Shown: positions 3,630 to 31,896 of the stretch, piece by piece
Layout of the letters: the number at the start of each line of letters is the position of its first letter
Numbering within the stretch: the stretch's first letter is position 1
Origin: a virus
Length of the DNA: 36,533 bases
UHGV virus genome: UHGV-0135234
Direction: 5' to 3' (one strand)
The notes under the pieces: generated by a model
What the model was told of the DNA's origin: nothing
Databases searched by the model: none
What the model saw: the letters and a program-made list of their open reading frames with translations, nothing else
Translations under genes and position numbers: made by a program

Positions 3630-3644
3630 TTACCGTTGAGGTAA
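3630..3644. promoter_or_regulatory. operator palindrome TTACC-N5-GGTAA (OL-proximal)
   Basis: ttaccgttgaggtaa; overlaps predicted -10/+1 of leftward promoter. Confidence 0.6.
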
Positions 3645-3672
3645 TGATTATGCGTATTTGGTTTGATGTCAA
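3644..3672 (-). promoter_or_regulatory. putative leftward early promoter (pL-like)
   Basis: Minus strand -35 TTGACA (3667..3672), 17-bp spacer, -10 AATCAT; flanked by two operator palindromes. Confidence 0.4.
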
Positions 3673-3691
3673 TAGATATGAGTTAAAAAAA

Positions 3692-3706
3692 TTACCCGTT
3701 AGGTAA
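3692..3706. promoter_or_regulatory. operator palindrome TTACC-N5-GGTAA (OL-distal)
   Basis: ttacccgttaggtaa, perfect inverted repeat. Confidence 0.6.
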
Positions 3707-3719
3707 TCAAATAAGCAAT

Positions 3720-3742
3720 AAAAAAGCCGCCAGAAGGCGGCT
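3720..3742 (-). terminator. rho-independent terminator downstream of repressor gene
   Basis: Minus strand hairpin gccgcc-ttct-ggcggc followed by TTTTT. Confidence 0.6.
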
Positions 3743-3763
3743 TACTTACTGAAAAATATGATT

Positions 3764-4348
3764 TTATTGTTTATTTTTTTCGTTCTGGTTGATGACAAAT
3801 TCAATGTAACTTTCGATCTTTGCCTTCTCTGTTTCAGGTAACAATGCGTAGCGCGAGCGGTCATAGTTGATAGTCGCGGGGTCGTGCGGGTGAATCAGTA
3901 ATTCATATCCGTGACGCCCAAATGCGGATGCAACATTCTCCAGGGTGGAAATGGAAACGCTGACCTCATTGTTTAACAGGCGGCTGATTGTTACCTGGGC
4001 GACGCCGGATGCGCGGTGAAGTTTTCCCTGCGTTGAAAGGTCGCGGCTTTCGCTCATCCAGCGTTCCAGGTTGTGAGCCGCCAGTTGACCAATGTCGCTT
4101 GGTCCGACAGGCTGAAAACCTTCCTGAGAAAGCGAGCGATCGATATCAAGCCAGTTACGGGGTTTATTGGCGGCAGCTTCAATTTTTCGCGCAACCTGGT
4201 CGCCGATAACCTTCTTGCCAAGAGCCCAGCGGTTTACCAGATTTGCCTGAGTTCCAAGTTTTTCAGCCATCCGCGTCTGAACACCATTGAATTCACGGTC
4301 GATCAAGTCGTTGAGATTTTGCCTGCGGACGTCCTGGATACTTTTCAT
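3764..4348 (-). CDS. phage immunity repressor (CI-like, two HTH domains, no S24 peptidase domain)
   Basis: 194 aa; N-terminal HTH (QTRMAEKLGTQANLVNRWALGKK) and second HTH (RASGVAQVTISRLLNNEVSVSISTLENVA); no LexA-like autocleavage domain; divergent from Cro-like gene with operators between. Confidence 0.75.
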   Translation of the reverse strand: MKSIQDVRRQNLNDLIDREFNGVQTRMAEKLGTQANLVNRWALGKKVIGDQVARKIEAAANKPRNWLDIDRSLSQEGFQPVGPSDIGQLAAHNLERWMSESRDLSTQGKLHRASGVAQVTISRLLNNEVSVSISTLENVASAFGRHGYELLIHPHDPATINYDRSRYALLPETEKAKIESYIEFVINQNEKNKQ

Positions 4349-4403
4349 TTTCTGGAAAATCGCCTCATATCTGAATCAGAAGATGATTCAATTTAAAGCA
4401 ATA

Positions 4404-4418
4404 TTACCCAACAGGTAA
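4404..4418. promoter_or_regulatory. operator palindrome TTACC-N5-GGTAA (OR region)
   Basis: ttacccaacaggtaa in divergent repressor/cro intergenic region. Confidence 0.6.
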
Positions 4419-4451
4419 ATGCACCTCATGGGTAACTATCCTTGATTTTTG

Positions 4452-4466
4452 TTACCTTATAGGTGA
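4452..4466. promoter_or_regulatory. operator palindrome, imperfect (TTACC-N5-GGTGA) (OR region)
   Basis: ttaccttataggtga; lies in spacer of putative pR (-35 TTGATT 4442..4447). Confidence 0.45.
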
Positions 4467-4502
4467 ATATTTATTATCTGAAATAAATATCAGGCAATAG
4501 CT

Positions 4503-4733
4503 ATGAGCGATAACGGACATTTCGATTTCAAAAAGCACTGGCTTGCACTTACTCCGGATGAGCGTGAAGCCTTCGCACAGGAAGCCGGAACGACGAGTCA
4601 CTATATCCAGACTCACTTAACAGGTAAGCGCAAAATGCCAGGTAAGGTATTGATGAATGGGCTTTTTAAAGCCTGTAAATCAAGACAATGGCTGCGCTCA
4701 AAAGCAGAACTGGCATACTTCTTCTACTCATGA
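4503..4733 (+). CDS. Cro-like HTH regulator
   Basis: 76 aa, first rightward gene from immunity region; HTH around EREAFAQEAGTTSHYIQTHL. Confidence 0.6.
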   Translation: MSDNGHFDFKKHWLALTPDEREAFAQEAGTTSHYIQTHLTGKRKMPGKVLMNGLFKACKSRQWLRSKAELAYFFYS

Positions 4734-4755
4734 TATCCAGCCGCAACCCTCTGTA

Positions 4756-4780
4756 GACCGCCATCCGGCGGTCTTTTCAT
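4756..4780 (+). terminator. rho-independent terminator (tR1-like) after cro-like gene
   Basis: gaccgcc-atcc-ggcggtc 7-bp stem followed by TTTTC. Confidence 0.6.
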
Positions 4781-4883
4781 ATCTATTCGCACCTCAAAGG
4801 TAATAAAAAACCAAATCTGGTTGATCTTTTTTTTGTGTCAGCACAAAATGACCGTAATCCCAATACTAATAACAGGGCTTACC

Positions 4884-5084
4884 ATGGAAATCATTACACG
4901 TATTGATGCCGCAAAGCGCGGACTTAAACGCTACTACACCGGAAAACCATGTAAGCACGGACATGACAGTGAACGCTGGGTTTACAACGGACACTGCGTT
5001 GAGTGCACCATGGAATCAAACCGTCGCATCAGGGCAGAGATTAAGCAGATCATGATTAATTCCTCCCCACAACATTCAAGCTGA
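4884..5084 (+). CDS. small zinc-ribbon protein (C-x-H-x-H...C-x2-C)
   Basis: ORF 4821..5084; ATG at 4884 (MEIITRIDAAKRGLKRYYTGKPCKHGHDSERWVYNGHCVEC...); function unknown. Confidence 0.5.
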   Translation: MEIITRIDAAKRGLKRYYTGKPCKHGHDSERWVYNGHCVECTMESNRRIRAEIKQIMINSSPQHSS

Positions 5085-5099
5085 TAGCGGAGATTAATC

Positions 5100-5915
5100 A
5101 TGAGCAGACATGCAACAGATTGGGCCTGGGAGACAGATCCAGGTAGCTCGTCATTAAAGCTCATACTGCTTTCGATGGCTGACAGAGCCGATGAATATAA
5201 CCTCTGCTATCCCAGCATAGAACGCCTCGTTAAAGACACTTGCCTGAATAAAAAAACCGTACAGGCCGGGCTTATATCGCTCATGAAAATGGGGCTTATT
5301 TCAGATACCGGAGAGAGAAAGGGAGCGACGAAAAGAGTGCGGGTTTTCTCTCTTAATATAACCAAAAACGGGAACATTAAAGGCAACCGGGAGGGGGGCA
5401 ATGAACCCGAAAACGGTAATGTTACCGAAAACGGGAATATACCCAAAAACGGGATGTTGAATGATCCCAAAAACGGGATGTTGAATGATCCCAAAAACGG
5501 GATCCAGAACCAGTCATATAACCAGTCATTTAACCAAGAGAGGGAGAGCAGGACAAAAAACGGGGATTCTGTGCATCATGACCCCAGCGCAAACAACGCC
5601 GTGATGAATAACTTTGTTCCTCCTGGTGGGCCAGGGCAATTAGGCAAATTTGTCATGCATGAACAATGGCAGCCATCAGATGACTTTCTTCGGAAAAGCT
5701 CATTGCAGGGGATCTACCTGGACAGTCTGCCAACGGCACAGGAACTTGCAGAGTTCAGAATTTACTGGATGGCTGAGGGTAAGGCATACCATCAGGCACA
5801 GTGGGAGCAGAAGCTGGCAAGGCGGCTGCAGATTAGCAGACAGAAGCAATCAACATTACCTGATAACAACGTTCCGCACTGGAACAGCCCTGAAGCATGG
5901 GAGGATTTCTTGTGA
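5100..5915 (+). CDS. replication initiator, lambda O-like (HTH N-domain, iteron-encoded linker)
   Basis: 271 aa; N-terminal winged-HTH-like region; central (K/E)NG repeats encoded by DNA iterons; directly precedes P-like gene. Confidence 0.7.
   Translation: MSRHATDWAWETDPGSSSLKLILLSMADRADEYNLCYPSIERLVKDTCLNKKTVQAGLISLMKMGLISDTGERKGATKRVRVFSLNITKNGNIKGNREGGNEPENGNVTENGNIPKNGMLNDPKNGMLNDPKNGIQNQSYNQSFNQERESRTKNGDSVHHDPSANNAVMNNFVPPGGPGQLGKFVMHEQWQPSDDFLRKSSLQGIYLDSLPTAQELAEFRIYWMAEGKAYHQAQWEQKLARRLQISRQKQSTLPDNNVPHWNSPEAWEDFL
5361..5565. repeat. origin-like iterons inside O-like gene (about 7 copies, core AAAACGGGA)
   Basis: Core at 5365, 5410 (variant), 5428, 5446, 5470, 5494, 5557; two perfect 24-bp copies cccaaaaacgggatgttgaatgat at 5442..5465 and 5466..5489. 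Confidence 0.65.
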
Positions 5916-6697
5916 ACAACGTTTTTACCGCGATACAAAACCGTGACGGAGAAGCCCTTTCTCGCATGTCAGGTTATGAGCATCAGTACACCAACAATGA
6001 CAACGTGGTGAACATGTCAGCAGAGAGGCTTGTTGATGCCCTTTTCAAACAGCTGAAACAACTGTTTCCGGCGGCAGTGGTAACCAACCTGAAGACGCCA
6101 GAGCAGGAAGTCGCTGCAAAACAGCAGTGGATTGCTGCGTTTGCCGAAGGTGGGATCCGAACCCGTGAACAGGTTTCTGCTGGTATGCGCCACGCCCGCG
6201 CCAGTGAATCTCCGTTCTGGCCGTCTCCAGGGCAATTTATCAAGTGGTGCAAAGACAGCAAGATGGTTCTTGGCGTCACCATTGACGATGTGATGGCGGA
6301 GTTTCACCGGTACAGCAAGGAAAAAAGTTTATATCCTGGTGGTCCCGAAAGATTCCCGTGGCGGCATCCGGTTATGTACTGGGTCGTATGTGATACCCGC
6401 CGTGCAATGTATCAGCGCCAGCTTAGCGAGATTGAGGTTGAGAAACACGCACGCAGGCTGCTCGATGATTGGGCGAAAAAGGTGGCTTCCGGACAGCAGA
6501 TACCCGATCCGGTGATCAGCATACAGGCAAAGCCAGAGCCCATGAGTACACCTCCGGACACAGGGAGAGACGTTTACCATCCACCAGGGCGAAGTTTCGG
6601 GTGCATGCCTAACGCCGCCACCCTTGGGGGAATAACACCGGCGCAGTGGCTGATGGAGGAATACAGGCGGGGAAAGGCGGCAGGATTTATCAAGTAA
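5897..6697 (+). CDS. replication protein P-like (helicase loader)
   Basis: Clear similarity to lambda P core (FPAAVVTNL...QQWIAAFAEGGIRTREQVSAGMRHARASESPFWPSPGQFIKWCKD vs lambda FPASLANRD...RRQWVLAFRENGITTMEQVNAGMRVARRQNRPFLPSPGQFVAWCRE). Alternative GTG start at 5912 with GGGAGG SD. Confidence 0.85.
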   Translation: MGGFLVNNVFTAIQNRDGEALSRMSGYEHQYTNNDNVVNMSAERLVDALFKQLKQLFPAAVVTNLKTPEQEVAAKQQWIAAFAEGGIRTREQVSAGMRHARASESPFWPSPGQFIKWCKDSKMVLGVTIDDVMAEFHRYSKEKSLYPGGPERFPWRHPVMYWVVCDTRRAMYQRQLSEIEVEKHARRLLDDWAKKVASGQQIPDPVISIQAKPEPMSTPPDTGRDVYHPPGRSFGCMPNAATLGGITPAQWLMEEYRRGKAAGFIK

Positions 6698-6702
6698 TAC
6701 CA

Positions 6703-6722
6703 GCGCGATAGCGCATTTTTTT
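6703..6722 (+). terminator. weak terminator-like hairpin after P-like gene
   Basis: gcgc-gata-gcgc followed by ATTTTTTT. Confidence 0.35.
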
Positions 6723-6734
6723 ACGCCTCAATAA

Positions 6735-6749
6735 TTACCTGTTAGGTAA
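6735..6749. promoter_or_regulatory. operator palindrome TTACC-N5-GGTAA
   Basis: ttacctgttaggtaa upstream of internal promoter. Confidence 0.55.
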
Positions 6750-6768
6750 TAAAATATTCTAAACTCTA

Positions 6769-6797
6769 TTGATTTCGTGTCTTATGTGGTTTTTAAT
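6769..6797 (+). promoter_or_regulatory. putative internal promoter for nin-like operon
   Basis: -35 TTGATT (6769..6774), 17-bp spacer, -10 TTTAAT (6792..6797), directly followed by operator. Confidence 0.4.
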
Positions 6798-6811
6798 TAC
6801 CTCAGAGGTAA
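6797..6811. promoter_or_regulatory. operator palindrome TTACC-N5-GGTAA overlapping SD of downstream gene
   Basis: ttacctcagaggtaa; ends 4 nt before ATG 6815. Confidence 0.55.
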
Positions 6812-6814
6812 ATC

Positions 6815-7159
6815 ATGAGAAAACAGATACAGGCTCTTGGTCGACTCAAAACAGGCCAGATGAACAAAACAGAATCTGCGTATTGCCAGCACCTTGAGCA
6901 GCGTAAACGTGCAGGGGAAATAGCCTGGTATCGATTCGAGGGTATCAAGCTGCGGTTAGCTGACAACACGTTCTATACGCCAGATTTCGCTGTGATGCTC
7001 GCCACCGGCGAGATGGAACTGCACGAAGTGAAAGGTTTCTGGACCGACGACGCCAGGGTGAAAACCAAAGTCGCCGCAGATCAGTATCCGTTCCGAATCA
7101 TCGGGGTAACGGTTAAGCCAAAGAAAGCAGGTGGTGGCTGGAAAATCGAAGAGTTCTGA
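6815..7159 (+). CDS. DUF1064-like PD-(D/E)XK nuclease-fold protein
   Basis: 114 aa; FYTPDF...ELHEVKG motif pattern. Confidence 0.6.
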   Translation: MRKQIQALGRLKTGQMNKTESAYCQHLEQRKRAGEIAWYRFEGIKLRLADNTFYTPDFAVMLATGEMELHEVKGFWTDDARVKTKVAADQYPFRIIGVTVKPKKAGGGWKIEEF

Positions 7160-7220
7160 ATCGACGATCTTTTTAGTTATCAATGTAATCAATAAGTTAT
7201 GTGGATAAGCGAGGGTAAAG

Positions 7221-7778
7221 ATGGAAAGTAATATCAAAGGGTTAGTTGCCGCCGGGCATGAGATGGCTTCGGAACTGAAAGCAGAATGTGGTGCCGTTGA
7301 TATGCGCAGTGTGGCAAAGCTGATCAGCGATTTGGCAACGCAACTGGAAGTGCAACTGGTGCGTGCTAATGCGCTGGCCGAAGACCAGCAGAAAGCGATT
7401 GAGTCAATTAAGCAGGCTGATGCAGCTGTTAAGTTGGCACACGAGAAGTTTTCAGCGCTTGCGGCGGAGAATGCGGGGCTAAAGGCGATATGTGATGACC
7501 GTCGCAGATTCATCATGAATGGGGTGCAGATGGGTTATATCAAGGTGCCAGCAGCGGAAACAGATCCAGACCTTGAGACAATTCGCATTGCTATATCACC
7601 ACAAAAGCCCATTCCAGCCACCGATGCTTTCCTGACTGAAATTGAACGCAAAGCAATCCGAAAGTTCATTAACAGCATTGAACACATCCTGCGTGACAAG
7701 CTGTCTCCGTATGACACCGAAGAGATGCTTGAGGCTATTCGTATTTTTCTGGAAGAACAGAGTGGTGAGCAAAAATGA
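7221..7778 (+). CDS. hypothetical phage protein (coiled-coil)
   Basis: 185 aa; GAGGGT SD; stop overlaps next start (ATGA). Confidence 0.6.
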   Translation: MESNIKGLVAAGHEMASELKAECGAVDMRSVAKLISDLATQLEVQLVRANALAEDQQKAIESIKQADAAVKLAHEKFSALAAENAGLKAICDDRRRFIMNGVQMGYIKVPAAETDPDLETIRIAISPQKPIPATDAFLTEIERKAIRKFINSIEHILRDKLSPYDTEEMLEAIRIFLEEQSGEQK

Positions 7779-8890: not shown

Positions 8891-9081
8891 TGGATGTAAA
8901 AGAGAAGGTTTTGCAGGTGATGCGTTCCCGGGCAGCCCTGCAAGATAAAGCTCTCGGCGGGGAATATCCATTCAGGATGGCAACCTGGAATTTGCGGTTG
9001 GCAATGGAGAAGGAATTTCCTGATGAAGAATGGCGTTCGGCAGATTTGCGCAAAATTCTTATGGAGCTGGCTAAAGACTGA
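8887..9081 (+). CDS. hypothetical phage protein
   Basis: 64 aa; ATGA-coupled to upstream gene; GGAGG SD. Confidence 0.5.
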   Translation: MMDVKEKVLQVMRSRAALQDKALGGEYPFRMATWNLRLAMEKEFPDEEWRSADLRKILMELAKD

Positions 9082-9146
9082 GCAGTATCCAAAGATACCT
9101 ATGCCAGCCGGATTGGTCAGGCGGTATGGAGACTGGAGGTGCGGTA

Positions 9147-9428
9147 ATGGCTAACCTGCAACTTGCAGTCAAAGGTGAATACTTCGATGCCATGATTCGC
9201 GGAGAGAAAACGGAAGAGTATCGCTTGTGTAATGACTACTGGAATAAGCGCCTCGTTAACCGTAAGTATGACCGCCTGATTATCACAAAGGGATATCCGA
9301 AGCGCGACGATTCCAGTCGTAGAATAGACGCCCCGTATGAAGGGTATGAAATCAAGACAATCACACATCCGCACTTCGGCGATAAACCGGTAAATGTGTT
9401 CGCGATAAAGGTAAATATTGATGGCTAA
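9147..9428 (+). CDS. ASCH-domain protein
   Basis: ORF 9126..9428; ATG at 9147 with GGAGGT SD; LAVKGEYFDAMIRGEKTEEYR matches ASCH hallmark. Confidence 0.6.
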   Translation: MANLQLAVKGEYFDAMIRGEKTEEYRLCNDYWNKRLVNRKYDRLIITKGYPKRDDSSRRIDAPYEGYEIKTITHPHFGDKPVNVFAIKVNIDG

Positions 9429-9759
9429 ATCAGCAGCAGAGCGCAAAGCCGCTCAGAGAGCCAGACAAGCTGCATCTGGTGTGCGTAAGCTGGAAATTGT
9501 GCTTGATGCTCAGGAAATTGAAATGCTGGAGCGTAACTGTGCCACGCGTCGCCCCGGGCGTGCGCCTTACGAATTTGGTGAGTATATAGCGTTATTGATC
9601 CGCCAGGATGATGCACGCGTGCACGGGCGTATAAAATCGATCAGCAGAAAACGTTGCGGTAAGTGCGGCGAGAGAGTTCCAGTTAATTCATGCCCGTGTA
9701 ATGGTGACTCGCAATGCTGGGTGACTAAAGGCTGGCATGAAACGAAATTAATAGTGTGA
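9421..9759 (+). CDS. Cys-rich small protein (possible zinc-binding regulator)
   Basis: 112 aa; C-terminal CGKCGERVPVNSCPCNG; last gene before packaging operon. Confidence 0.5.
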   Translation: MAKSAAERKAAQRARQAASGVRKLEIVLDAQEIEMLERNCATRRPGRAPYEFGEYIALLIRQDDARVHGRIKSISRKRCGKCGERVPVNSCPCNGDSQCWVTKGWHETKLIV

Positions 9760-9808: not shown

Positions 9809-9834
9809 GCCGCCAACTATGGCGGCTTTATTTT
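9809..9834 (+). terminator. rho-independent terminator upstream of terS
   Basis: gccgcc-aactat-ggcggc followed by TTTATTTT. Confidence 0.65.
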
Positions 9835-9845
9835 GCATGGTACTA

Positions 9846-9860
9846 TTACCACAACGGTAA
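9846..9860. promoter_or_regulatory. operator palindrome TTACC-N5-GGTAA upstream of terS
   Basis: ttaccacaacggtaa; preceded by TACTAT -10-like hexamer; direct repeat CTATTACCAC at 9843 and 9861. Confidence 0.55.
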
Positions 9861-9877
9861 CTATTACCACGGTGGTT

Positions 9878-10474
9878 ATGATGCCTGCTGAACCTAAAAC
9901 CTATAAACGCAAATCAACGCAATTTAAGCCGCTCACAGCAATGCAGGAGGCTTATTGCCAGTCATACATCAAAACGCCTGAAAACCAGACTCAGGCAGCG
10001 ATTAACGCAGGATTCTCCCCAAATACAGCGGCAGTTAAAGCCAGTGTCATGATGCGCGATGAACGCATTCAAAAACGGATTGCCGAGTTGATGGAGGAGC
10101 GCAACAAACGAATGCGCGTCAGTGCTGATTACGTTCTCATGCGCCTGGTGGAGATCGACCAGATGGACGTGATCGACATCCTCAACGACGATGGTAGCCT
10201 TAAGCCAATCCGCGAGTGGCCGAAAATCTGGCGCACTACGCTTAGTGGCTTTGATCTGTCATCGACCATCATGAACATGAACGAGGATTCGATAGAGACA
10301 ATCCTCAAAAAAATTAAATGGCCTGACAAGGTGAAGAACCTCGAACTGATTGGTAAGCACGTCGACGTCAACGCATTCAAAGAACGCCTGGATGTTAATG
10401 TGAATGTGACAATTGCTGATCGCATAGCGGCAGCCAGGAAGAGACTGAAAGAACGTCAGGATGGCAATCAGTGA
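9878..10474 (+). CDS. terminase small subunit
   Basis: ORF 9800..10474; ATG at 9878 or 9881 (upstream part contains the terminator); pattern resembles small-terminase family (QEAYCQSYIKTPENQTQAAINAGFSPNTAAVKASVMMRDERIQKRI). Confidence 0.75.
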   Translation: MMPAEPKTYKRKSTQFKPLTAMQEAYCQSYIKTPENQTQAAINAGFSPNTAAVKASVMMRDERIQKRIAELMEERNKRMRVSADYVLMRLVEIDQMDVIDILNDDGSLKPIREWPKIWRTTLSGFDLSSTIMNMNEDSIETILKKIKWPDKVKNLELIGKHVDVNAFKERLDVNVNVTIADRIAAARKRLKERQDGNQ

Positions 10475-12036: not shown

Positions 12037-12417
12037 TTATTGCTCGCTTAGCTTCTGCTTCAGCAAGTAACCTTCGAGCATCCAGATTTTGTTTACAGCA
12101 TTCTGCCGGGCAATCTTCCGACCAATTTCTGCATCAAAGTTTTCCGGGCTTGCACAGGCGCTCTCTCCGGTGACGGTGAAGCCATTCTTCAGCACCAGTA
12201 CGCAGAAAGTGAGCAACTTCAATGGTGATAAATCACGATCGCCTTCTTCTGGTTTTTCCCTGCCACAATATTCGTTGCTGGAAATGGCACCATTACGTCC
12301 ATCATAAGCAGTAAAGTAATGCTCGCTTTTAATCACGTCTTCGATGTGCTGCGGAGTGATTCTCGGAGCGGTTTTGCCTTTCTCAACGATTTCTTTTTCG
12401 ATTTGCTGGTCGTTCAT
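12037..12417 (-). CDS. Gp49-like phage protein (unknown function)
   Basis: 126 aa; AAGGTG SD; reverse-oriented inside late region; conserved block LTFCVLVLKNGFTVTGESACASPENFDAEIGRKIA. Confidence 0.55.
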   Translation of the reverse strand: MNDQQIEKEIVEKGKTAPRITPQHIEDVIKSEHYFTAYDGRNGAISSNEYCGREKPEEGDRDLSPLKLLTFCVLVLKNGFTVTGESACASPENFDAEIGRKIARQNAVNKIWMLEGYLLKQKLSEQ

Positions 12418-12615: not shown

Positions 12616-12692
12616 TGGCGTGGCATGCAGGATTCGAACCTGCGACCAACCGCTTAGAAGGCGGTTGCTCTGTCCAACTGAGCTAATGCCAC
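12616..12692 (-). tRNA. tRNA-Arg (anticodon UCU)
   Basis: 77 nt GTGGCATTAGCTCAGTTGGACAGAGCAACCGCCTTCTAAGCGGTTGGTCGCAGGTTCGAATCCTGCATGCCACGCCA; 7-bp acceptor stem, D-arm GCTC/GAGC, anticodon loop CTTCTAA, T-loop TTCGAAT, encoded CCA. Confidence 0.9.
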
Positions 12693-13021: not shown

Positions 13022-13036
13022 TTACCTGAAAGGTAA
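13022..13036. promoter_or_regulatory. operator palindrome TTACC-N5-GGTAA upstream of head operon
   Basis: ttacctgaaaggtaa. Confidence 0.55.
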
Positions 13037-13126
13037 TAATTTGTGCGTTAAATGTCAACTATCTACGATAAATAAATCATATGTGGTTAAATTGGTAATA
13101 ATTTAATTGCGTACGGAGTCATTGAT

Positions 13127-26625: not shown

Positions 26626-26630
26626 ATTAA

Positions 26631-29105
26631 ATGAGACAGGAATGTATACAAGCGGTCCAGCAGGCGGCGCAGCGCACGTTAACGGCGCGAGAAATACAGA
26701 ACATTGAAGACCGCATTTATCGAAATATGCGCTCCATTGCTCGTGATGACCCGATGTCGTGGCGACAACTTTCCGAATCAGAACGGTTGTATCGTGCAGC
26801 ACAATTGGCATCTGAAGAATTACAGCGAGAAGCGGCATTAAAGAAACGTCGTGTGGCCCTCACTATAGCCGCACGTCAGAGATTGGATAAATTTATCAAT
26901 AGCTATCAAGGGGCTGATGGGAAACTTGGCGCTCTTAACCGTACTATTGCTTTTAATGCAGACGGTAAATCGAATTTCCTCTCTGTTGAATCCAGAACAA
27001 AAGCCACCCGTGATTATGCATTGAGTCAATTGCAGGAGGCATTCGAAGCAGTTGATCCTCGCTTTTTTGGTCTGTTTGAAGATGAAGCGGGCGTACGTGA
27101 CCTGGTATATGAAATGCGGGGGCAAAATACTGGCAATGCTAAAGCAAGAAAAGGTGCTAAGGCGTGGAGAGAAGTTACAGAGCTGCTGCGCCGCCGGTTT
27201 AATGATGCTGGTGGGGACATTGGCTATCTCGAAAACTGGGGGATCCCTCAACATCATTCTATGGAAAAGGTTGGGGCGGTATCAAAGGATAAGTGGGTTA
27301 GCGATGTTATAGGTAAGCTGGATCGCAAATATTATACCCGAGCCGATGGACAACTGATGAACGATGCCGAGTTGTCTGAATTTCTTGGAGAGGCTTATAA
27401 CACGATCGCTACTGGTGGGCTGAATAAGCTTACTGATACCGGAATGCGAATTTCCGGCGCACGTGCTAACCGTGGTAATGCATCACGACAGATACATTTC
27501 AAAGATGCAGATTCCTATCTGCAATATCAGCAACTTTATGGCGATCGCTCTCTATGGGAAATCATGGTCGGTCACCTGGAAGGTATCAGTAAAGATATTG
27601 CGCTGGTGGAAACATATGGCCCAAACCCCGATCATGTTTTCCGCTCCCTTCTTGATCAGGTTAAGGCAGAAACGGCAACAGCTAACCCGAGTAAAACCGG
27701 TAGCGTCGAGCGTCTGGCGAACAAAACAGAGAACTTGTACAACTTTATTTCCGGAAAAACACAGCCTGTAGCGAATCCGCACATCGCGCGATGGTCTGAC
27801 AATATCCGCAACTGGCTGGTTGCCAGCAGACTCGGATCCGCGTTGCTGTCATCGTTCTCTGATCTTGGAACCATGTATCTGTCTGCGAAGGTTACCAACC
27901 TTCCAATGAACCAGTTATTTCGCAACCAGCTTGAAGCTATGGACCCAACGAACCGTACAGAACTTGCGCGGGCGCGCCGCGCTGGCCTGGCGATGGAATC
28001 TCTACTTGGCAGCGTTAACCGCTGGGCGATGGATAATATGGGGCCGTCTGTGTCTCGTTGGGCGGCAACGGCGGTAATGCGTGCCAGTGGGCTTACAGCA
28101 TGGTCAGATGCGCACAAGCGCGCCTATGGCGTAACCATGATGGGAAGCCTGGGAGAAGTAGTGTCACGGACACCAGACCTTCGTAGCCTCGATGACTCTG
28201 ATTTTCGTATCCTGAAAAGCAAAGGGATTACTGACACAGACTGGAGCGTATGGAAGCTGGCGCAACAGGAGGACTGGGGGAACGGTAATAATACGATGCT
28301 GACACCGGAAAGCATTATGCGTATCCCTGATTCAGCAGTTAAACATCTTGGTGAGCCTGAACGCGTGAAATTTGAGGCAATGCGTAAACTGCTCGGTGCC
28401 GTAACTGAAGAAGTTGATATGGCTGTTATTACACCGGGCGCACGTGAACAGATGTTCGTAGGGTCTGGTCTTCAGCGTGGAACATGGAAAGGTGAATTAA
28501 CGAGAAGTGTTTTCCTGTTTAAATCGTTCCCTATCTCGGTAGTTATGCGTCACTGGCATAGAGCTATGGGGATGCCGTCTGCTGGTGGGCGTGCGGCATA
28601 TATAGCAACGTTTTTAGCAAGCACAACCATGCTTGGTGCTCTTTCCATGCAGATTACTGATCTTATTAATGGGAGAAATCCAAAAGAAATGACCGGTGAC
28701 AACATGGTTAAATTCTGGATAAATGCATTTTTAAAAGGTGGTGGGGCAGGGTTGTATGGTGATTTTCTTTTCTCTGACCACACCAGGTACGGGAGCGGCG
28801 CACTAGCGTCGATGCTTGGCCCGGTAGCTGGTCTGGTTGATGACGTAGTGAAGATTGCTCAGGGCATACCGTTAAATGCTGTGGAAGGGAAGAATGAGCA
28901 GACTGGTGGTGATCTGGTTAAGCTTGGGAAAGGTTTGATGCCTGGTGCGAATCTCTGGTACTTGAAGGCGGCTCTCGATCACATGATCTTTAATCAGATG
29001 CAGGAGTATTTTTCACCAGGCTATTTGCGTAAAATGGAGCAACGTTCGAAGAAAGAGTTTAACCAGACATACTGGTGGCGACCTCAGGATGTCACTCCGC
29101 AATAA
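26631..29105 (+). CDS. large internal virion/ejection protein
   Basis: 824 aa; last large protein of virion block. Confidence 0.65.
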   Translation: MRQECIQAVQQAAQRTLTAREIQNIEDRIYRNMRSIARDDPMSWRQLSESERLYRAAQLASEELQREAALKKRRVALTIAARQRLDKFINSYQGADGKLGALNRTIAFNADGKSNFLSVESRTKATRDYALSQLQEAFEAVDPRFFGLFEDEAGVRDLVYEMRGQNTGNAKARKGAKAWREVTELLRRRFNDAGGDIGYLENWGIPQHHSMEKVGAVSKDKWVSDVIGKLDRKYYTRADGQLMNDAELSEFLGEAYNTIATGGLNKLTDTGMRISGARANRGNASRQIHFKDADSYLQYQQLYGDRSLWEIMVGHLEGISKDIALVETYGPNPDHVFRSLLDQVKAETATANPSKTGSVERLANKTENLYNFISGKTQPVANPHIARWSDNIRNWLVASRLGSALLSSFSDLGTMYLSAKVTNLPMNQLFRNQLEAMDPTNRTELARARRAGLAMESLLGSVNRWAMDNMGPSVSRWAATAVMRASGLTAWSDAHKRAYGVTMMGSLGEVVSRTPDLRSLDDSDFRILKSKGITDTDWSVWKLAQQEDWGNGNNTMLTPESIMRIPDSAVKHLGEPERVKFEAMRKLLGAVTEEVDMAVITPGAREQMFVGSGLQRGTWKGELTRSVFLFKSFPISVVMRHWHRAMGMPSAGGRAAYIATFLASTTMLGALSMQITDLINGRNPKEMTGDNMVKFWINAFLKGGGAGLYGDFLFSDHTRYGSGALASMLGPVAGLVDDVVKIAQGIPLNAVEGKNEQTGGDLVKLGKGLMPGANLWYLKAALDHMIFNQMQEYFSPGYLRKMEQRSKKEFNQTYWWRPQDVTPQ

Positions 29106-29114
29106 GGAACAACA

Positions 29115-29528
29115 ATGAAGGAATTATTGCTGTTATCGGTATTTTTGATATCCGCTTGCTCGACATCCTATGATGTTTATGACGGTGTTGATAAGGCATA
29201 TTGCGACAAAGTTAAAATGGATTTTTCTCTTGCCAAGACGGCGAAGGATAGTTGTATTGATCACTACGTCAAGACTTATACCAAGCCAGCCTCATCGGCA
29301 TCTGATATTGCTGAAGGTGCTGTGTTTGAGTGTAACAAGGTGATATCCATCGCAGCGAGTTCTTCATACGATGCTGCTGTATGTGCAATGGCTGAAAGAA
29401 ACGGCATGTCAGTGCAAAAAATTAATAGCATGATAAGCAGTAATGACGAAGCCAAAATAAGAACTGATATCAGCTCGGTGAAAAAAGATGCCATGAACAG
29501 AGTTGTAAAATATCAGTCATCTTTATAA
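29115..29528 (+). CDS. lipoprotein (candidate superinfection-exclusion moron)
   Basis: 137 aa; signal peptide MKELLLLSVFLISAC with lipobox ISAC, Ser at +2; AT-rich; followed by palindrome and terminator. Confidence 0.6.
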   Translation: MKELLLLSVFLISACSTSYDVYDGVDKAYCDKVKMDFSLAKTAKDSCIDHYVKTYTKPASSASDIAEGAVFECNKVISIAASSSYDAAVCAMAERNGMSVQKINSMISSNDEAKIRTDISSVKKDAMNRVVKYQSSL

Positions 29529-29531
29529 GTC

Positions 29532-29543
29532 GTGACATGTCAC
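29532..29543. repeat. 12-bp palindrome GTGACATGTCAC (copy 2)
   Basis: Identical to 12021..12032; abuts terminator 29545..29568. Confidence 0.6.
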
Positions 29544-29544
29544 A

Positions 29545-29568
29545 GGCCGCTTTCGCGGCCTTGTTTTT
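29545..29568 (+). terminator. rho-independent terminator
   Basis: ggccgc-tttc-gcggcc followed by TTGTTTTT. Confidence 0.65.
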
Positions 29569-29728
29569 AACGAATGCCACCGCCACCCGGGCGGGAATCC
29601 GCAGAACGCCCACCGCAGCGGGAGCCGTCAGCAGCAGTGTCGCTGTCGTGCTGACAACGACCGGCAAAGGCCTGAGTTGAAGCTACCAGAGACAACAAAA
29701 CGAACAGTGCAGCAAATGCTTTTTTCAT
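29567..29728 (-). CDS. small secreted peptide (Sec signal peptide, 2 Cys, Gly-rich C-terminus)
   Basis: ORF 29567..29800; ATG at 29728 gives 53 aa MKKAFAALFVLLSLVASTQAFA|GRCQHDSDTAADGSRCGGRSADSRPGGGGIR; weak SD. Confidence 0.35.
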   Translation of the reverse strand: MKKAFAALFVLLSLVASTQAFAGRCQHDSDTAADGSRCGGRSADSRPGGGGIR

Positions 29729-29800
29729 TGTGAAATTTCCATCTATAAGCCACCTCAATGTGGCGTCAATGAGTGTAGCACTGACTTTTGTTTCGCCCAC

Positions 29801-29821
29801 AAAAAAGCCCGCAGCGCGGGC
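29801..29821 (-). terminator. rho-independent terminator after cargo gene B
   Basis: Minus strand gcccgc-gct-gcgggc followed by TTTTTT. Confidence 0.6.
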
Positions 29822-30261
29822 TATTCTTCTTCATCATTAAAAAGCGGATTGTTGTTTCCATCTGATGAAAGGAAAGGTATGTGTTCTCTTGAAAATCCAA
29901 CAATGACAATTTCATTATCATTTTTTGCATAATGAATGCATTCATTAGAATGCCTTCCGCCAGGGTTGAAATTTAAGTTAATGGTATAATTCTTAAATGT
30001 GTTTGGATACCATGTTGGCCCACAATGATAATGCCAATAATTCTCTTGCTCATAATTGTCTGAGCCGGGAATTTTATCATGGTTATCATCAACCCACGAG
30101 GGCTTGTTTTTTCCAACAAGCGCCCTTCCATTGGCAACATCCTCTAAAAAACTTTGTATGATTTTTATTTCATCATCAGTAAGGAAAGGTCCGTCTACAG
30201 CGAAAGGGGTGTTGCTTTCCCCATGTAGAAAACTATTAGATATTCTAATGTTAAACTTCAA
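29821..30261 (-). CDS. AT-rich cargo protein of unknown function (gene B)
   Basis: ORF 29821..30402 has no internal Met; CAGGAG SD + 6 nt + TTG at 30261 gives 146 aa (MKFNIRISNSFLHGESNTPFAVDGPFLTDDEIKIIQ...NYWHYHCGPTWYP...FNDEEE); upstream 47 codons of the long ORF use rare codons and overlap gene A. Start uncertain. Confidence 0.4.
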   Translation of the reverse strand: MKFNIRISNSFLHGESNTPFAVDGPFLTDDEIKIIQSFLEDVANGRALVGKNKPSWVDDNHDKIPGSDNYEQENYWHYHCGPTWYPNTFKNYTINLNFNPGGRHSNECIHYAKNDNEIVIVGFSREHIPFLSSDGNNNPLFNDEEE

Positions 30262-30281
30262 GGAAAACTCCTGATGTGCTT

Positions 30282-30449
30282 CTATTTGGAGCGAAATGCC
30301 GCCTTGAAGTCGCTGAAAGATGTTCCTGTCTGGTAAACCATATCCTTGTCGCGCTCTTTGCTTGCGCGGCCAAGCATAACTTTTCCAATGACATCCCAGC
30401 ATTGCTTGGCTTGTTCATTGTGCTGAGTACGATTTTTCAACGCTGTCAT
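30282..30449 (-). CDS. small protein (gene A), first gene of operator-controlled cargo operon
   Basis: 55 aa MTALKNRTQHNEQAKQCWDVIGKVMLGRASKERDKDMVYQTGTSFSDFKAAFRSK; AGGAGG SD 6 nt before ATG; host-like codon usage; not in ORF track (<60 aa). Confidence 0.4.
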   Translation of the reverse strand: MTALKNRTQHNEQAKQCWDVIGKVMLGRASKERDKDMVYQTGTSFSDFKAAFRSK

Positions 30450-30461
30450 ATCGCGCCTCCT

Positions 30462-30476
30462 TTACCTTTAAGGTAA
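30462..30476. promoter_or_regulatory. operator palindrome TTACC-N5-GGTAA between promoter and gene A
   Basis: ttacctttaaggtaa immediately upstream of SD. Confidence 0.55.
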
Positions 30477-30504
30477 TAGTACGCTATTCACCCACAGTCT
30501 GCAA
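30476..30504 (-). promoter_or_regulatory. putative promoter of cargo operon
   Basis: Minus strand -35 TTGCAG (30499..30504), 17 bp, -10 TACTAT (30476..30481), then operator. Confidence 0.45.
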
Positions 30505-30513
30505 TCTGTACAG

Positions 30514-30540
30514 AATTATTTAAAGGCACATCCCTGTGCC
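30514..30540 (-). terminator. terminator-like hairpin after Bro-N gene
   Basis: Minus strand ggcaca-ggga-tgtgcc followed by TTTAAATAATT. Confidence 0.4.
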
Positions 30541-30548
30541 GCCGCCCG

Positions 30549-31235
30549 TCAGAAGAACCCAGCCTTGTCGTTGATGTACTCCGCGTGGGTCTGGATATCA
30601 CGCAGGCATTTGCTCACACCAACAATGTAGCAGAACATGGTGGTCAGCTCCGCCGCCGCGCCCGATACGTCGTGCCCGTCTTCCTGTAACTGGTTCAGCA
30701 GATTCATCAGCAGTGAGTTCTCCGTCAGGCCGAGAACACCAGACGGAGAATGAATCAGGCTGCGGTAGCCGGGCTTCAGTGGGGCACTGTAGGTTTTGTT
30801 CTCTATCTTCATTGCCTGCATCACTGCTGATGCTGTGGCGTTGGCTACCTGGTCGGCAACTATCTTTATGCGTTCTTCCTGCGGGAGCGAGTTTTTAATG
30901 TAACTTCCGGTGCGGCGGATCTGAGGAAGAACCTCACCTGTAACCCATTTACGAAAGCGGTAGGGGATAGTGCCTGGTGTCACTGCGTCGCGGCAGCGGA
31001 GGATCAGTGTGTAGAGGCCTGACTCGTTGATAATATTGGTTTCACCTTGACGGCCTAAGTTAAATTTAGCCCTTTCATCATCATCAAGAGATTTTATTGA
31101 CATAGTGGGGTTTGTCAGTTGAAGAGCTTTAATAACGTCTTTGGCAACAAACCAAGGATTTCCATCAATAACAATGGCTCGAATGGTGGCTTCTGATTCA
31201 AAATGAAAAACAGATGGGGTTACGTTAGCAGTCAT
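30549..31235 (-). CDS. Bro-N domain antirepressor-like protein
   Basis: ORF 30549..31388; ATG at 31235 (MTANVTPSVFHFESEATIRAIVIDGNPWFVAKDVIKALQL... classic Bro-N N-terminus); AAGGTGA SD; upstream extension is a structured leader. Confidence 0.8.
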   Translation of the reverse strand: MTANVTPSVFHFESEATIRAIVIDGNPWFVAKDVIKALQLTNPTMSIKSLDDDERAKFNLGRQGETNIINESGLYTLILRCRDAVTPGTIPYRFRKWVTGEVLPQIRRTGSYIKNSLPQEERIKIVADQVANATASAVMQAMKIENKTYSAPLKPGYRSLIHSPSGVLGLTENSLLMNLLNQLQEDGHDVSGAAAELTTMFCYIVGVSKCLRDIQTHAEYINDKAGFF

Positions 31236-31388
31236 AGTGATCACCTTTGTAGTTAGGTTAATCACCACTACCGACGCCAATCGGTTGGTGGTGAACTGTG
31301 CAGGGTTGGCGTAACCGGCTACAAAGGACCCGGCGCACCTTTCGGTGCCCCCACACAGCCCACCATAGAATAGGTGCGCTTTACACAT

Positions 31389-31408
31389 AAAAAAACCGCT
31401 TATGCGGC
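31389..31408 (-). terminator. intrinsic terminator/attenuator in Bro leader
   Basis: Minus strand gccgc-ataa-gcggu followed by seven U. Confidence 0.45.
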
Positions 31409-31501
31409 ATATGTGCCTCTGTAGTAACCCGGGACGCCAATCCCGGCACTGGATTTTGCCAGTGCCCGATTACTATGGCACAAGAGGAGTGCGATGTAAA
31501 T

Positions 31502-31516
31502 TTACCGAAAAGGTAA
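31502..31516. promoter_or_regulatory. operator palindrome TTACC-N5-GGTAA
   Basis: ttaccgaaaaggtaa directly downstream of putative Bro promoter. Confidence 0.55.
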
Positions 31517-31544
31517 TAATAAACACTCTACTTGGTAATTGCAA
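31516..31544 (-). promoter_or_regulatory. putative promoter for Bro-N gene
   Basis: Minus strand -35 TTGCAA (31539..31544), 17 bp, -10 TATTAT (31516..31521); same architecture as gene A promoter. Confidence 0.4.
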
Positions 31545-31547
31545 ACC

Positions 31548-31805
31548 TTATCTGGTTTGTTTTCGTAATTGTTCGGCACAATAGTCGAGATGTGTTTGCA
31601 GATCCCGCATAGACATCTGTGAGCTGGTGACGTAGTTAATCAGTGCAGTCAGTTCGGCAAGTGGGCCATCGACATTAAATCCATCCTTATCGAGATCCCG
31701 GAGTAATTTCATCAAGTGCGATCCCTCCACCAGTGACCTGACGCCTCCCGGCGTGTGAATCCTTTCGGTAAATCCGTCTTCCAGTGGATAGTGATACTGC
31801 TGCAT
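31548..31805 (-). CDS. small antirepressor-domain protein, paralog of Bro C-terminal domain; LexA-box controlled
   Basis: ORF 31548..31823 (TTG); ATG at 31805 gives 85 aa with GGAG SD; aligns with C-terminus of 30549..31235 protein (IH(S/T)P.GV..L.E.S.LM.LL..L..DG..V.G..AELT...RD.QTH..Y). Confidence 0.55.
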   Translation of the reverse strand: MQQYHYPLEDGFTERIHTPGGVRSLVEGSHLMKLLRDLDKDGFNVDGPLAELTALINYVTSSQMSMRDLQTHLDYCAEQLRKQTR

Positions 31806-31826
31806 CTTATCTTCTCCATGCAATAA

Positions 31827-31842
31827 CTGTATATTTATACAG
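31827..31842. promoter_or_regulatory. LexA box (SOS operator) CTGTATATTTATACAG
   Basis: Perfect CTGT-N8-ACAG with AT-rich spacer; 10 nt upstream of SD of the 85-aa gene. Confidence 0.75.
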
Positions 31843-31881
31843 TATCAAATAATTTGTTTGCTATCCAGCACGTTTTGCAAA

Positions 31882-31896
31882 TTACCCGAAAGGTAA
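31882..31896. promoter_or_regulatory. operator palindrome TTACC-N5-GGTAA
   Basis: ttacccgaaaggtaa between 85-aa gene and divergent tailspike. Confidence 0.55.

What the first reader, a model, noticed from the sequence alone, without database searches (positions are those of the whole stretch)
3630..31896. A 15-bp palindrome TTACC-N5-GGTAA at 11 intergenic sites, including late and cargo promoters
Perfect or near-perfect copies at 3630, 3692, 4404, 4452 (imperfect GGTGA), 6735, 6797, 9846, 13022, 30462, 31502, 31882, with a degenerate candidate at 4789. All are intergenic. Four flank the repressor/cro divergent region like OL/OR. Others sit immediately downstream of -10-like hexamers (TACTAT-TACC at terS and gene A, TATTAT-TACC at Bro, TTTAAT-TACC at 6797, AATCAT-TACC at pL). 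A single operator type spread across early, late, packaging and cargo promoters is not the lambda paradigm (two operator clusters) and looks more like a P1 C1-style dispersed regulon, implying direct repression of structural and cargo genes in the lysogen.
Basis: seen in the sequence. Interest (0 to 1): 0.8.

Follow-up and report, generated by a model that had tools for sequence, protein, structure and literature searches.

The report
Known epsilon15-type repressor operators, genome-wide
The repeated palindrome TTACC-N5-GGTAA is real and far from chance, but it is the operator set already annotated for the repressor of epsilon15/phiV10-type temperate phages, so this is a confirmed, largely known regulatory feature.

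Summary
TTACC-N5-GGTAA occurs 10 times exactly (0.01 expected) and 12 times with at most one mismatch (0.67 expected). All copies lie in the 8% of the window that is non-coding.

The window is a Uetakevirus genome, about 97% identical to phiV10, PAS61 and HEMP4. Its 194-aa repressor is a full-length homologue of the crystallised SPC32H Rep. The window also carries the SPC32H-type small antirepressor Ant behind a LexA box.

The RefSeq record of epsilon15 already marks ATTACC-N5-GGTAAT as repressor-binding sites at the same places: pL, the mid-early operon, terS, the portal operon and the tail fibre gene. Motif, positions and a 61-63 bp spacing of operator pairs are conserved in 11 related phages and prophages.

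The "dispersed regulon" reading is therefore right but not new. "Direct repression of structural genes" is only partly supported. At pL, the 6797 promoter, terS, the cargo gene and Bro, the operator abuts a -10 element. At the portal and tailspike genes it lies 40-55 bp upstream of a separate conserved late-promoter block, next to leftward promoters.

The Bro leader carries isrK and a P1-type C4 antisense RNA.

The parts
3630..3644 (.). OL1: exact operator covering the start region of pL. On the minus strand, -35 TTGACA lies at 3672-3667 and -10 AATCAT at 3649-3644.
3692..3706 (.). OL2: exact operator 62 bp (centre to centre) upstream of OL1, between the rep terminator and the pL -35.
   Evidence: The 61-63 bp pair spacing is conserved in 11 relatives.
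3764..4348 (-). rep: 194-aa repressor, a full-length homologue of SPC32H Rep (PDB 5d50). It has an N-terminal DNA-binding domain with an invariant NLVNRW stretch, a middle HTH_3 domain and a C-terminal tetramerisation/Ant-binding region. It has no S24 peptidase domain.
4404..4418 (.). OR3-like exact operator, next to the rep side of the divergent region.
4421..4435 (.). OR2-like weak operator GCACCTCATGGGTAA (2 mismatches), 17 bp from 4404. The same 17 + 30/31 bp triple is present in epsilon15 and SPC32H.
4452..4466 (.). OR1-like operator (GGTGA, 1 mismatch) overlapping the -35 and spacer of pR (TTGTTA 4449-4454, 17-nt spacer, TATTAT 4472-4477).
4503..4733 (+). Cro-position gene, 76 aa (phrog_35, transcriptional repressor).
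4789..4803 (.). Degenerate site GCACCTCAAAGGTAA after the terminator that follows the cro-like gene. The orthologous position has a 1-mismatch site in phiV10 and Tyrion.
6735..6749 (.). Upstream operator of the mid-early-right promoter pair, 62 bp from 6797.
6797..6811 (.). Proximal operator abutting -10 TTTAAT (6792-6797); -35 TTGATT lies at 6769-6774. Its right half supplies the GAGG ribosome-binding site of the DUF1064 gene, whose ATG is at 6815.
9846..9860 (.). terS operator 1. It directly follows an extended -10 (TGgTACTAT, 9838-9846), which itself follows the terminator at 9809-9826.
9864..9878 (.). terS operator 2 (GGTTA, 1 mismatch), 18 bp from the first and ending 2 nt before the terS ATG at 9881.
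13022..13036 (.). Single operator between the leftward tRNA-Arg/ORF 12037-12417 unit and the rightward gp3-portal operon. On the minus strand an invariant TTGACA (13061-13056) lies exactly 17 nt from TACCTT inside the operator. The rightward late-promoter block starts about 40 bp downstream.
30462..30476 (.). Operator abutting -10 TACTAT (minus strand, 30481-30476) of a leftward cargo unit of unknown function (55-aa ORF 30282-30449 and ORF 29821-30402).
31502..31516 (.). Operator abutting -10 TATTAT (minus strand; TTGCAA at 31544-31539, 17-nt spacer, TATTAT at 31521-31516). This promoter drives isrK, the C4 RNA and Bro.
31284..31465 (-). Leader RNAs of the Bro unit: isrK-like sRNA (31389-31465) and P1-type C4 antisense RNA (31284-31370).
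   Evidence: 74.7 and 79.5 bits, both above the gathering scores
30549..31235 (-). Bro-N domain antirepressor-like gene. The start is probably the ATG at 31235, because the longer ORF overlaps the two RNAs.
31882..31896 (.). Single operator in the divergent ant/tailspike region. It is centred about 57 bp upstream of the inferred Pant start and about 40 bp upstream of the tailspike late-promoter block.
31827..31842 (.). LexA box CTGTATATTTATACAG overlapping the inferred Pant -10 (TACTGT). The inferred -35 is TGGATA (31867-31862, minus strand).
31548..31805 (-). ant: small antirepressor, 87% identical to SPC32H Ant.

Best explanation
The palindrome, in full (A)TTACC-N5-GGTAA(T), is the operator of the prophage repressor Rep encoded at 3764-4348. 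Rep belongs to the epsilon15/SPC32H family: an N-terminal helix-turn-helix domain, a dimerisation domain and a C-terminal tetramerisation domain.

In the lysogen, Rep probably sits on about 14 operators in 9 intergenic regions and keeps almost every transcription unit quiet. At five promoters the operator starts at the last base of the -10 element and covers the transcription start, so Rep would exclude RNA polymerase. These are pL, the 6797 promoter, terS, the 30462 cargo unit and the isrK-C4-Bro unit. At pR it covers the -35.

At pL and at the 6797 promoter a second operator lies exactly 62 bp upstream. This fits one tetramer holding both sites through a small DNA loop.

Single operators at the portal and tailspike regions lie in divergent intergenic regions upstream of a distinct late-promoter block. 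They may act on the leftward promoters, on the late promoters, or on both.

Induction is not by repressor cleavage. DNA damage removes LexA from the ant promoter, and Ant then pulls Rep off the DNA.

What is shown here: the motif statistics, positions, conservation, homology, and the promoter-like context. What is inferred: physical binding (reported for SPC32H Rep in papers I could not open), looping, and the direction of control at each site.
For: - Motif counts: 10 exact copies against 0.01 expected, and 12 against 0.67 with one mismatch. All lie in the 8.3% of the window that is non-coding.
- Identity of the window: a Uetakevirus about 97% identical to phiV10, PAS61 and HEMP4.
- Prior annotation: RefSeq NC_004775 (epsilon15) carries protein_bind 'repressor / lysogeny' features. 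Their sequences are ATTACC-N5-GGTAAT, and they lie upstream of terS, gp3/portal, the tail fibre gene, pL (three sites) and the mid-early operon.
- Repressor homology: Rep matches SPC32H Rep over its full length (PDB 5d50, E = 4e-42).
- DNA-binding domain: residues 1-70 are conserved, with an invariant NLVNRW, across five phages whose Reps are otherwise only 42-78% identical.
- Conservation of sites: the same motif occupies orthologous intergenic sites in phiV10, Tyrion, SPC32H, epsilon15 and Klebsiella BUCT711. It is also present in six enterobacterial prophages found through Rep.
- Pair spacing: 61-63 bp in all of these (same calls).
- Negative control: distant homologues of the DNA-binding domain, the one read having a different helix (TQVSRL in Hydrogenovibrio), have no such motif nearby.
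- Promoter context: -35/-10 elements abut the operators on the strand of the downstream gene and are conserved in alignments.
- Induction module: Ant is 87% identical to SPC32H Ant, and a perfect LexA box is present.
- Published data: SPC32H Rep binds palindromic DNA as a tetramer, with its DNA-binding pairs about 100 angstroms apart (PMC9638917; PMC9986798). Overexpressing the identical ZX5 repressor cut endolysin and holin mRNA by more than 99.9% (PMC9782041).
Against: - No binding or transcript data exist for this phage at the dispersed sites.
- The papers that should hold the operator experiments could not be read: Kropinski 2007, Kim and Ryu 2013, Kim 2016.
- The sites at 13022 and 31882 do not overlap the most conserved promoter-like blocks, so simple occlusion of the late promoters is not supported there.
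- The window has no operator upstream of its lysis genes, although relatives do. Control of every late unit by Rep is therefore not obligatory.
- The Cro-like protein could bind the same sites.
- The drop in late mRNA seen in ZX5 could be indirect.
Confidence: 0.85

Rival explanations
1. The operators next to the structural genes (13022, 31882, and the lysis-region site in relatives) do not repress the late promoters. They regulate the leftward, non-structural promoters in the same divergent regions: the tRNA-Arg/gp66-like unit, ant, and the O-antigen conversion genes in relatives. Late genes would then be controlled by a separate factor acting on the CCATATnTGGTT block.
For: - All three 'late' operators lie in divergent intergenic regions with a leftward gene.
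- At 13022, an invariant TTGACA lies exactly 17 nt from TACCTT inside the operator on the minus strand in six genomes, while the spacer sequence between them varies.
- The conserved late block lies 40-55 bp away from the operator, and the distance is not fixed.
- The window lost the lysis-region operator together with the leftward cargo gene but kept the late block.
Against: - The epsilon15 curators read these as lysogeny operators without assigning a direction.
- A tetramer could loop from the operator to the GGTAAT half-site inside the late block.
- At 31882 the operator lies upstream of Pant rather than on it, so simple occlusion does not explain repression of ant either.
- terS, a true late gene, does have the operator on its start site.
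Confidence: 0.4
2. The motif is mainly the target of another phage regulator rather than Rep. Candidates are the 76-aa Cro-position protein (4503-4733) and the 113-aa regulator encoded just before terS (9418-9759). It would then act as a lytic-phase control site or an activator site.
For: - In lambdoid phages, Cro shares the operators of CI.
- Both candidate genes are conserved across the genus.
- No binding data were available to me.
Against: - The sites bracket rep itself.
- They are labelled as repressor sites in the epsilon15 record.
- They lie on transcription starts, not in activator positions.
- The paired layout fits a tetramer with two DNA-binding units.
- The motif is invariant wherever the Rep DNA-binding domain is invariant.
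Confidence: 0.08
3. The repeats are a compositional or chance feature, or a host-factor site unrelated to immunity.
For: - GGTAA is about twice as common as expected on the + strand (71 copies).
- There are more two-mismatch matches inside genes than the shuffles give: 24 against about 9.
Against: - Ten exact copies against 0.01 expected; none of 100 shuffles reached this.
- All copies with at most one mismatch are intergenic (p about 1e-13).
- Positions are orthologous in phages of at least seven host genera.
- I know of no E. coli regulator with a TTACC-N5-GGTAA site (own knowledge).
Confidence: 0.01

Closest known systems
Repressor-binding sites annotated in Salmonella phage epsilon15 (RefSeq NC_004775; Kropinski et al. 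2007, Virology 369:234)
   Same: The 17-bp palindrome ATTACC-N5-GGTAAT is identical. The locations match: two or three sites at pL, sites at OR, a pair in the mid-early-right operon, terS, the gp3/portal operon and the ant/tail-fibre region. The genome architecture is the same.
   Different: The window's Rep is only 42% identical overall. The window has two sites at pL, not three, and extra sites at a Bro unit and a cargo unit that epsilon15 lacks. It has no site upstream of the lysis genes.
SPC32H Rep-Ant switch (Kim and Ryu 2013, J Virol 87:11775; Kim et al. 2016, PNAS 113:E2480; PDB 5d50, 5d4z)
   Same: Full-length Rep homologue; Ant 87% identical; LexA box at the ant promoter; same operator motif and positions in the SPC32H genome.
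   Different: The window has a second, Bro-type antirepressor-like gene with isrK and C4 leader RNAs. Rep's C-terminal half has diverged.
Phage P1 C1 repressor regulon and its immI region (own knowledge of the P1 literature)
   Same: One repressor with many operators scattered over the genome. An operator-controlled promoter drives a C4 antisense RNA followed by an antirepressor gene (plus the site at 31502). Induction works through an antirepressor.
   Different: P1 operators are asymmetric 17-mers, and C1 is an unrelated protein. P1 late genes are controlled indirectly through Lpa. Here the operator is a symmetric palindrome bound by an HTH tetramer, and it lies directly on the terS promoter.
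Lambda OL/OR
   Same: Divergent rep and cro with a three-part OR (4404, 4421, 4452), an OL on the pL start, and a weak repressor promoter next to OR.
   Different: Operators are not confined to two clusters. The repressor has no RecA-dependent autocleavage domain. Operator pairs are 62 bp apart and flank the promoter, rather than being adjacent.

Membership tests
Uetakevirus (epsilon15/SPC32H-type) Rep operator set | Rep orthologue with an N-terminal HTH DNA-binding domain, a middle HTH-like dimerisation domain and a C-terminal tetramerisation/Ant-binding domain | tested here: met
   phmmer against PDB 5d50_A gave E = 4e-42 over residues 1-190. Pfam HTH_3 matches residues 106-147 and there is a YdaS-like HTH at 21-61. 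Alignment A1 has 73 invariant columns, including NLVNRW.
Uetakevirus (epsilon15/SPC32H-type) Rep operator set | Palindrome ATTACC-N5-GGTAAT identical to the features labelled 'repressor' in NC_004775 | tested here: met
Uetakevirus (epsilon15/SPC32H-type) Rep operator set | Sites at orthologous intergenic positions (pL pair, OR, mid-early pair, terS, portal operon, ant/tailspike) | tested here: met
   alignments
Uetakevirus (epsilon15/SPC32H-type) Rep operator set | Small Ant antirepressor under a LexA box | tested here: met
   Ant is 87% identical to SPC32H Ant. CTGTATATTTATACAG lies at 31827-31842 and is conserved in six genomes.
Uetakevirus (epsilon15/SPC32H-type) Rep operator set | Physical binding of Rep to the sites and repression in vivo | not testable with these tools
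   Primary papers are not held. Secondary accounts exist.
Lambda-type CI/Cro switch | Three-part operator between divergent repressor and cro genes | tested here: met
   Sites at 4404, 4421 and 4452 lie between rep (ends 4348) and the cro-like gene (starts 4503).
Lambda-type CI/Cro switch | Repressor with a LexA-like S24 autocleavage domain | tested here: not met
   Pfam finds only HTH families. The homologue is inactivated by Ant.
Lambda-type CI/Cro switch | Operators confined to OL and OR | tested here: not met
   Nine intergenic regions carry sites.
P1 C1 dispersed regulon | Many operators scattered over otherwise unrelated operons | tested here: met
P1 C1 dispersed regulon | Asymmetric 17-bp operator | tested here: not met
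   The sites are perfect inverted repeats.
P1 C1 dispersed regulon | Repressor homologous to P1 C1 | not tested
   Rep was not compared directly with C1. Its only family and structure matches are Cro/C1-type HTH families and SPC32H Rep.
P1 C1 dispersed regulon | immI-type module: operator-controlled promoter, C4 antisense RNA, antirepressor gene | tested here: met
   Rfam C4 (RF01695) scores 79.5 bits at 31284-31370, between the operator/promoter at 31502-31544 and the Bro-N gene.
Mycobacteriophage L5 gp71 'stoperators' | Asymmetric sites inside transcribed regions, oriented so as to block elongation | tested here: not met
   The sites are symmetric and all lie at promoter-proximal intergenic positions. 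None with at most one mismatch lies inside a gene.

The most novel reading that the evidence does not exclude
Rep of this phage group acts as a whole-genome silencer with two site architectures that nobody has tested. The first is a pair of operators 61-63 bp apart that brackets a promoter (pL and the mid-early promoter) and is held by one tetramer through a tight loop. The second is a single operator placed next to each of a separate class of late promoters, which carry a CCATATnTGGTT element and have no -35. In addition, a single DNA-binding specificity is kept across prophages of at least seven enterobacterial genera, even though the rest of Rep has diverged to 42% identity. This would mean one genus-wide immunity type.
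Probability: 0.4. Interest if true: 0.45.

Novelty: already known. Interest (0 to 1): 0.3.

Why it matters
It gives a reliable operator map for a phiV10-type prophage: which promoters are probably silenced by Rep in the lysogen. That is useful for annotation, for engineering these phages (phiV10 is used as an E. coli O157 reporter phage) and for interpreting prophage transcriptomes. It does not change the picture of temperate-phage regulation, because the same sites were predicted for epsilon15 in 2007 and the Rep-Ant mechanism was solved for SPC32H. Three questions remain open and testable: loop formation by the 62-bp operator pairs, the role of the operators beside the late promoters, and whether all Uetakeviruses share one immunity.

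Tried and rejected
- **Primary papers.** I tried to read Kropinski 2007 (PMC2698709), Kim and Ryu 2013 (PMC3807360) and Kim 2016 (PMC4983836). None is held. Full-text searches for the motif with 'operator' or 'repressor' found nothing relevant.
- **Co-variation test.** I looked for a link between Rep's recognition helix and the motif. Pseudomonas phage PseuP_224, whose cI is 39% identical to Rep over residues 4-68, has no motif and no short palindromes near cI. Hydrogenovibrio, Thiomicrospira and Paraburkholderia homologues of the DNA-binding domain (TQVSRL in the Hydrogenovibrio one I read) also have none. This is consistent with the hypothesis but is only negative evidence. I found no relative with a changed half-site.
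- **Cargo genes.** The ORFs at 29115-30449 and 34187-34483 had no hits in NCBIfam or PADLOC, and the 193-aa ORF had none in Pfam.
- **Rejected: chance or composition**.
- **Rejected: stoperator-type roadblocks.** The sites are symmetric and lie at promoters.
- **Rejected: pac site or methylase target.** The sites are found only between genes, in nine separate regions.
- **Late promoters.** I could not assign canonical -35/-10 elements overlapping the 13022 and 31882 operators for the rightward late genes.

Full report
**1. The observation**

In 100 dinucleotide-preserving shuffles the mean was 0.01. Allowing one mismatch gives 12 matches against 0.67 expected.

Of the 26 further matches with two mismatches, only two are intergenic:
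- 4421, which lies between 4404 and 4452.

I built a gene map from homology and from the conserved start codons. On that map 8.3% of the window is non-coding, and all 14 sites lie entirely within it. The chance of 12 out of 12 falling there is about 1e-13.

**2. What the window is**

Megablast shows a Uetakevirus, the epsilon15/phiV10 group of temperate podoviruses. It is about 97% identical over most of its length to phiV10, PAS61, HEMP4, phiv142-3 and ZX5. The window runs from just after the integrase gene to the Rz gene, so the attP-int region is outside it.

**3. The sites are already annotated in the type phage**

The RefSeq record of epsilon15 (NC_004775) carries seven 'protein_bind: repressor, lysogeny' features. 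Reading them shows the same palindrome, ATTACC-N5-GGTAAT. They lie:
- upstream of terS;
- upstream of gp3/portal;
- between gp19 (the Ant homologue) and the tail fibre gene;
- three times at pL;
- in the middle of the early-right operon.

An exact scan finds 11 copies in epsilon15, including two at OR and one upstream of the lysis cassette. The phiV10 record has no such features, but the sequence has the sites.

**4. The repressor and its switch**

The 194-aa protein at 3764-4348 (minus strand) matches the crystallised repressor of Salmonella phage SPC32H over its whole length (PDB 5d50, E = 4e-42).
- It has two HTH regions and no S24 peptidase domain.
- Across the window, Tyrion, Klebsiella BUCT711, epsilon15 and SPC32H, overall identity falls to 42-44%.
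- The first 70 residues stay strongly conserved, with an invariant NLVNRW stretch. This explains why the half-site is the same in all of them.

The ORF at 31548-31805 (minus strand) is 87% identical to SPC32H Ant. A perfect LexA box, CTGTATATTTATACAG, lies at 31827-31842. In an alignment of six genomes it overlaps a conserved TGGATA-17-TACTGT promoter.

Secondary literature describes SPC32H Rep as follows:
- It is a tetramer that binds palindromic sites with pairs of DNA-binding domains drawn from different dimers.
- Tetrameric Ant removes it from DNA (PMC9638917).
- Its two DNA-binding ends lie about 100 angstroms apart, and its repression mechanism is 'not extensively characterized' (PMC9986798).

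For ZX5, whose repressor is identical to the window's, overexpression cut endolysin and holin mRNA by more than 99.9% (PMC9782041).

**5. Conservation of the regulon**

The motif occupies orthologous intergenic positions in phiV10, Tyrion (41), SPC32H (40), epsilon15 (17) and BUCT711 (47). It is also present in six prophages found through Rep, in Superficieibacter, Erwinia, Klebsiella, Citrobacter (two) and Scandinavium.

The spacing is striking. The pL pair and the mid-early pair are 61-63 bp apart, centre to centre, in every genome. OR is a triple with spacings of 17 and 30/31 bp. terS has two sites 18 bp apart.

Relatives also have one-mismatch sites upstream of the lysis cassette and of int. 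The window lacks the first, because a different cargo gene replaced that flank. The second lies outside the window.

Distant homologues of the DNA-binding domain, the one read having a different helix, have no such motif nearby.

**6. Anatomy at each site**

| Site(s) | Promoter context | Evidence |
|---|---|---|
| 3630 (pL) | On the minus strand, TTGACA-17-AATCAT; the operator begins at the last T of the -10 | |
| 6797 | TTGATT-17-TTTAAT, then the operator; its right half supplies the GAGG ribosome-binding site of the DUF1064 gene | |
| 3692 and 6735 | Partner operators, each 62 bp upstream of 3630 and 6797, so the promoter sits between the two sites | |
| 4452 (pR) | The operator covers the -35 and spacer of TTGTTA-17-TATTAT | |
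| 9846/9864 (terS) | A terminator is followed by an extended -10 (TGgTACTAT; TGtTACTAT in epsilon15), then two operators running up to the ATG | |
| 30462 (cargo, minus strand) | TACTAT abuts the operator | |
| 31502 (Bro, minus strand) | TTGCAA-17-TATTAT abuts the operator | |

In all five abutting cases the -10 lies on the strand of the downstream gene. These are textbook positions for steric repression.

**7. The two 'structural' sites differ**

Both the gp3-portal operon and the tailspike gene are preceded by a block that is nearly invariant in six genomes: CATATGTGGTT-N7-TAATA(A/G), followed by the ribosome-binding site. A third copy, CCATATATGGTT-N7-TATGAT, precedes the lysis cassette in relatives; the window has a degenerate version. 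The block has no -35. It contains the near-palindrome CCATATATGG where the spacer would be. I read it as a late-promoter class that needs an activator (inference).

The operators at 13022 and 31882 lie about 52 and 40 bp upstream of the centre of that palindrome, not on it. Both are in divergent regions.
- **At 13022,** the minus strand has an invariant TTGACA exactly 17 nt from TACCTT inside the operator, with a variable spacer sequence. It points at tRNA-Arg (12616-12692) and ORF 12037-12417.
- **At 31882,** the operator is centred about 57 bp upstream of the inferred ant start.

The claim of direct repression of the structural genes is therefore well founded for the packaging genes but open for the portal-to-tail and tailspike units.

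**8. The P1 comparison**

As a family assignment it fails. The operators are symmetric, and the protein is an SPC32H-type HTH tetramer.

Rfam finds an isrK-like sRNA (31389-31465) and a P1-type C4 antisense RNA (31284-31370) in the leader between the operator-controlled promoter at 31502-31544 and the Bro-N gene. This is the layout of P1 immI (C1 operator, c4, antirepressor; own knowledge) and of the Gifsy-1 isrK-anrP unit (PMC4825925).

**9. Verdict**

The feature is real, non-random and functional-looking. It is the known (predicted and annotated) Rep operator set of epsilon15-like phages in a close relative of phiV10.

Three things remain untested:
- looping by the 62-bp operator pairs;
- what the operators beside the late promoters do;
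- whether a single immunity specificity is shared across the genus.

Noticed in passing
window 31284-31465 (minus strand): Rfam finds an isrK-like Hfq-binding sRNA (31389-31465, 74.7 bits) and a P1-type C4 antisense RNA (31284-31370, 79.5 bits). They lie in tandem in the leader of the Bro-N antirepressor-like gene, downstream of the operator-controlled promoter. The long ORF 30549-31388 overlaps both RNAs, so the real Bro start is probably the ATG at 31235.
   Followed up: partly
window 13077-13105, 31925-31952 and 34616-34645; also L002-L006: A block CCATAT(G/A)TGGTT-N7-TAnnAn is nearly invariant in 5-6 genomes. It precedes the portal operon, the tailspike gene and the lysis cassette. It has no -35, and the near-palindrome CCATATATGG sits in the spacer position. 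It looks like a distinct late-promoter class that needs an activator. The 113-aa regulator gene at 9418-9759, just upstream of terS, is a candidate for that activator.
   Followed up: partly
window 13022-13061 (minus strand): An invariant TTGACA lies exactly 17 nt from TACCTT inside the operator in six genomes, and the spacer sequence between them varies. This suggests a Rep-controlled leftward promoter towards tRNA-Arg(tct) at 12616-12692 and ORF 12037-12417.
   Followed up: partly
window 9809-9846: The terS promoter appears to be an extended -10 (TGgTACTAT) placed immediately after an intrinsic terminator. The hairpin occupies the place where a -35 would be. This is conserved in epsilon15, SPC32H, Tyrion and phiV10.
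   Followed up: partly
window-wide; L002-L013: The Rep DNA-binding domain and the operator half-site are the same in phages and prophages of Escherichia, Salmonella, Klebsiella, Enterobacter, Citrobacter, Erwinia, Superficieibacter and Scandinavium, although Rep falls to 42% identity overall. Ant stays 87% identical between the window and SPC32H, while the Rep C-terminal region it binds is much more diverged.
   Followed up: partly
window coding regions (for example 10704, 22552, 27572): Twenty-four two-mismatch matches lie inside genes, against about 9 expected from shuffles. GGTAA occurs 71 times on the + strand and TTACC 43 times. This is probably codon or composition bias, but weak internal sites were not excluded.
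   Followed up: no
window 29115-30449 and 34187-34483: These cargo ORFs are shared only with phiv142-3 and HEMP4 and had no NCBIfam or PADLOC match (the 193-aa ORF also had no Pfam match). Relatives carry other genes in the same slots (YafO toxin in TL-2011b, oac in phiV10). The leftward cargo unit has its own promoter with a Rep operator on it, which is unusual for a gene expected to be expressed in the lysogen.
   Followed up: partly
window 31926-31963: The tailspike late block is flanked by an 11-nt inverted repeat (CATATGTGGTT ... AACCAGATATG). The repeat is present in the window and phiV10 but not in Tyrion or epsilon15.
   Followed up: no
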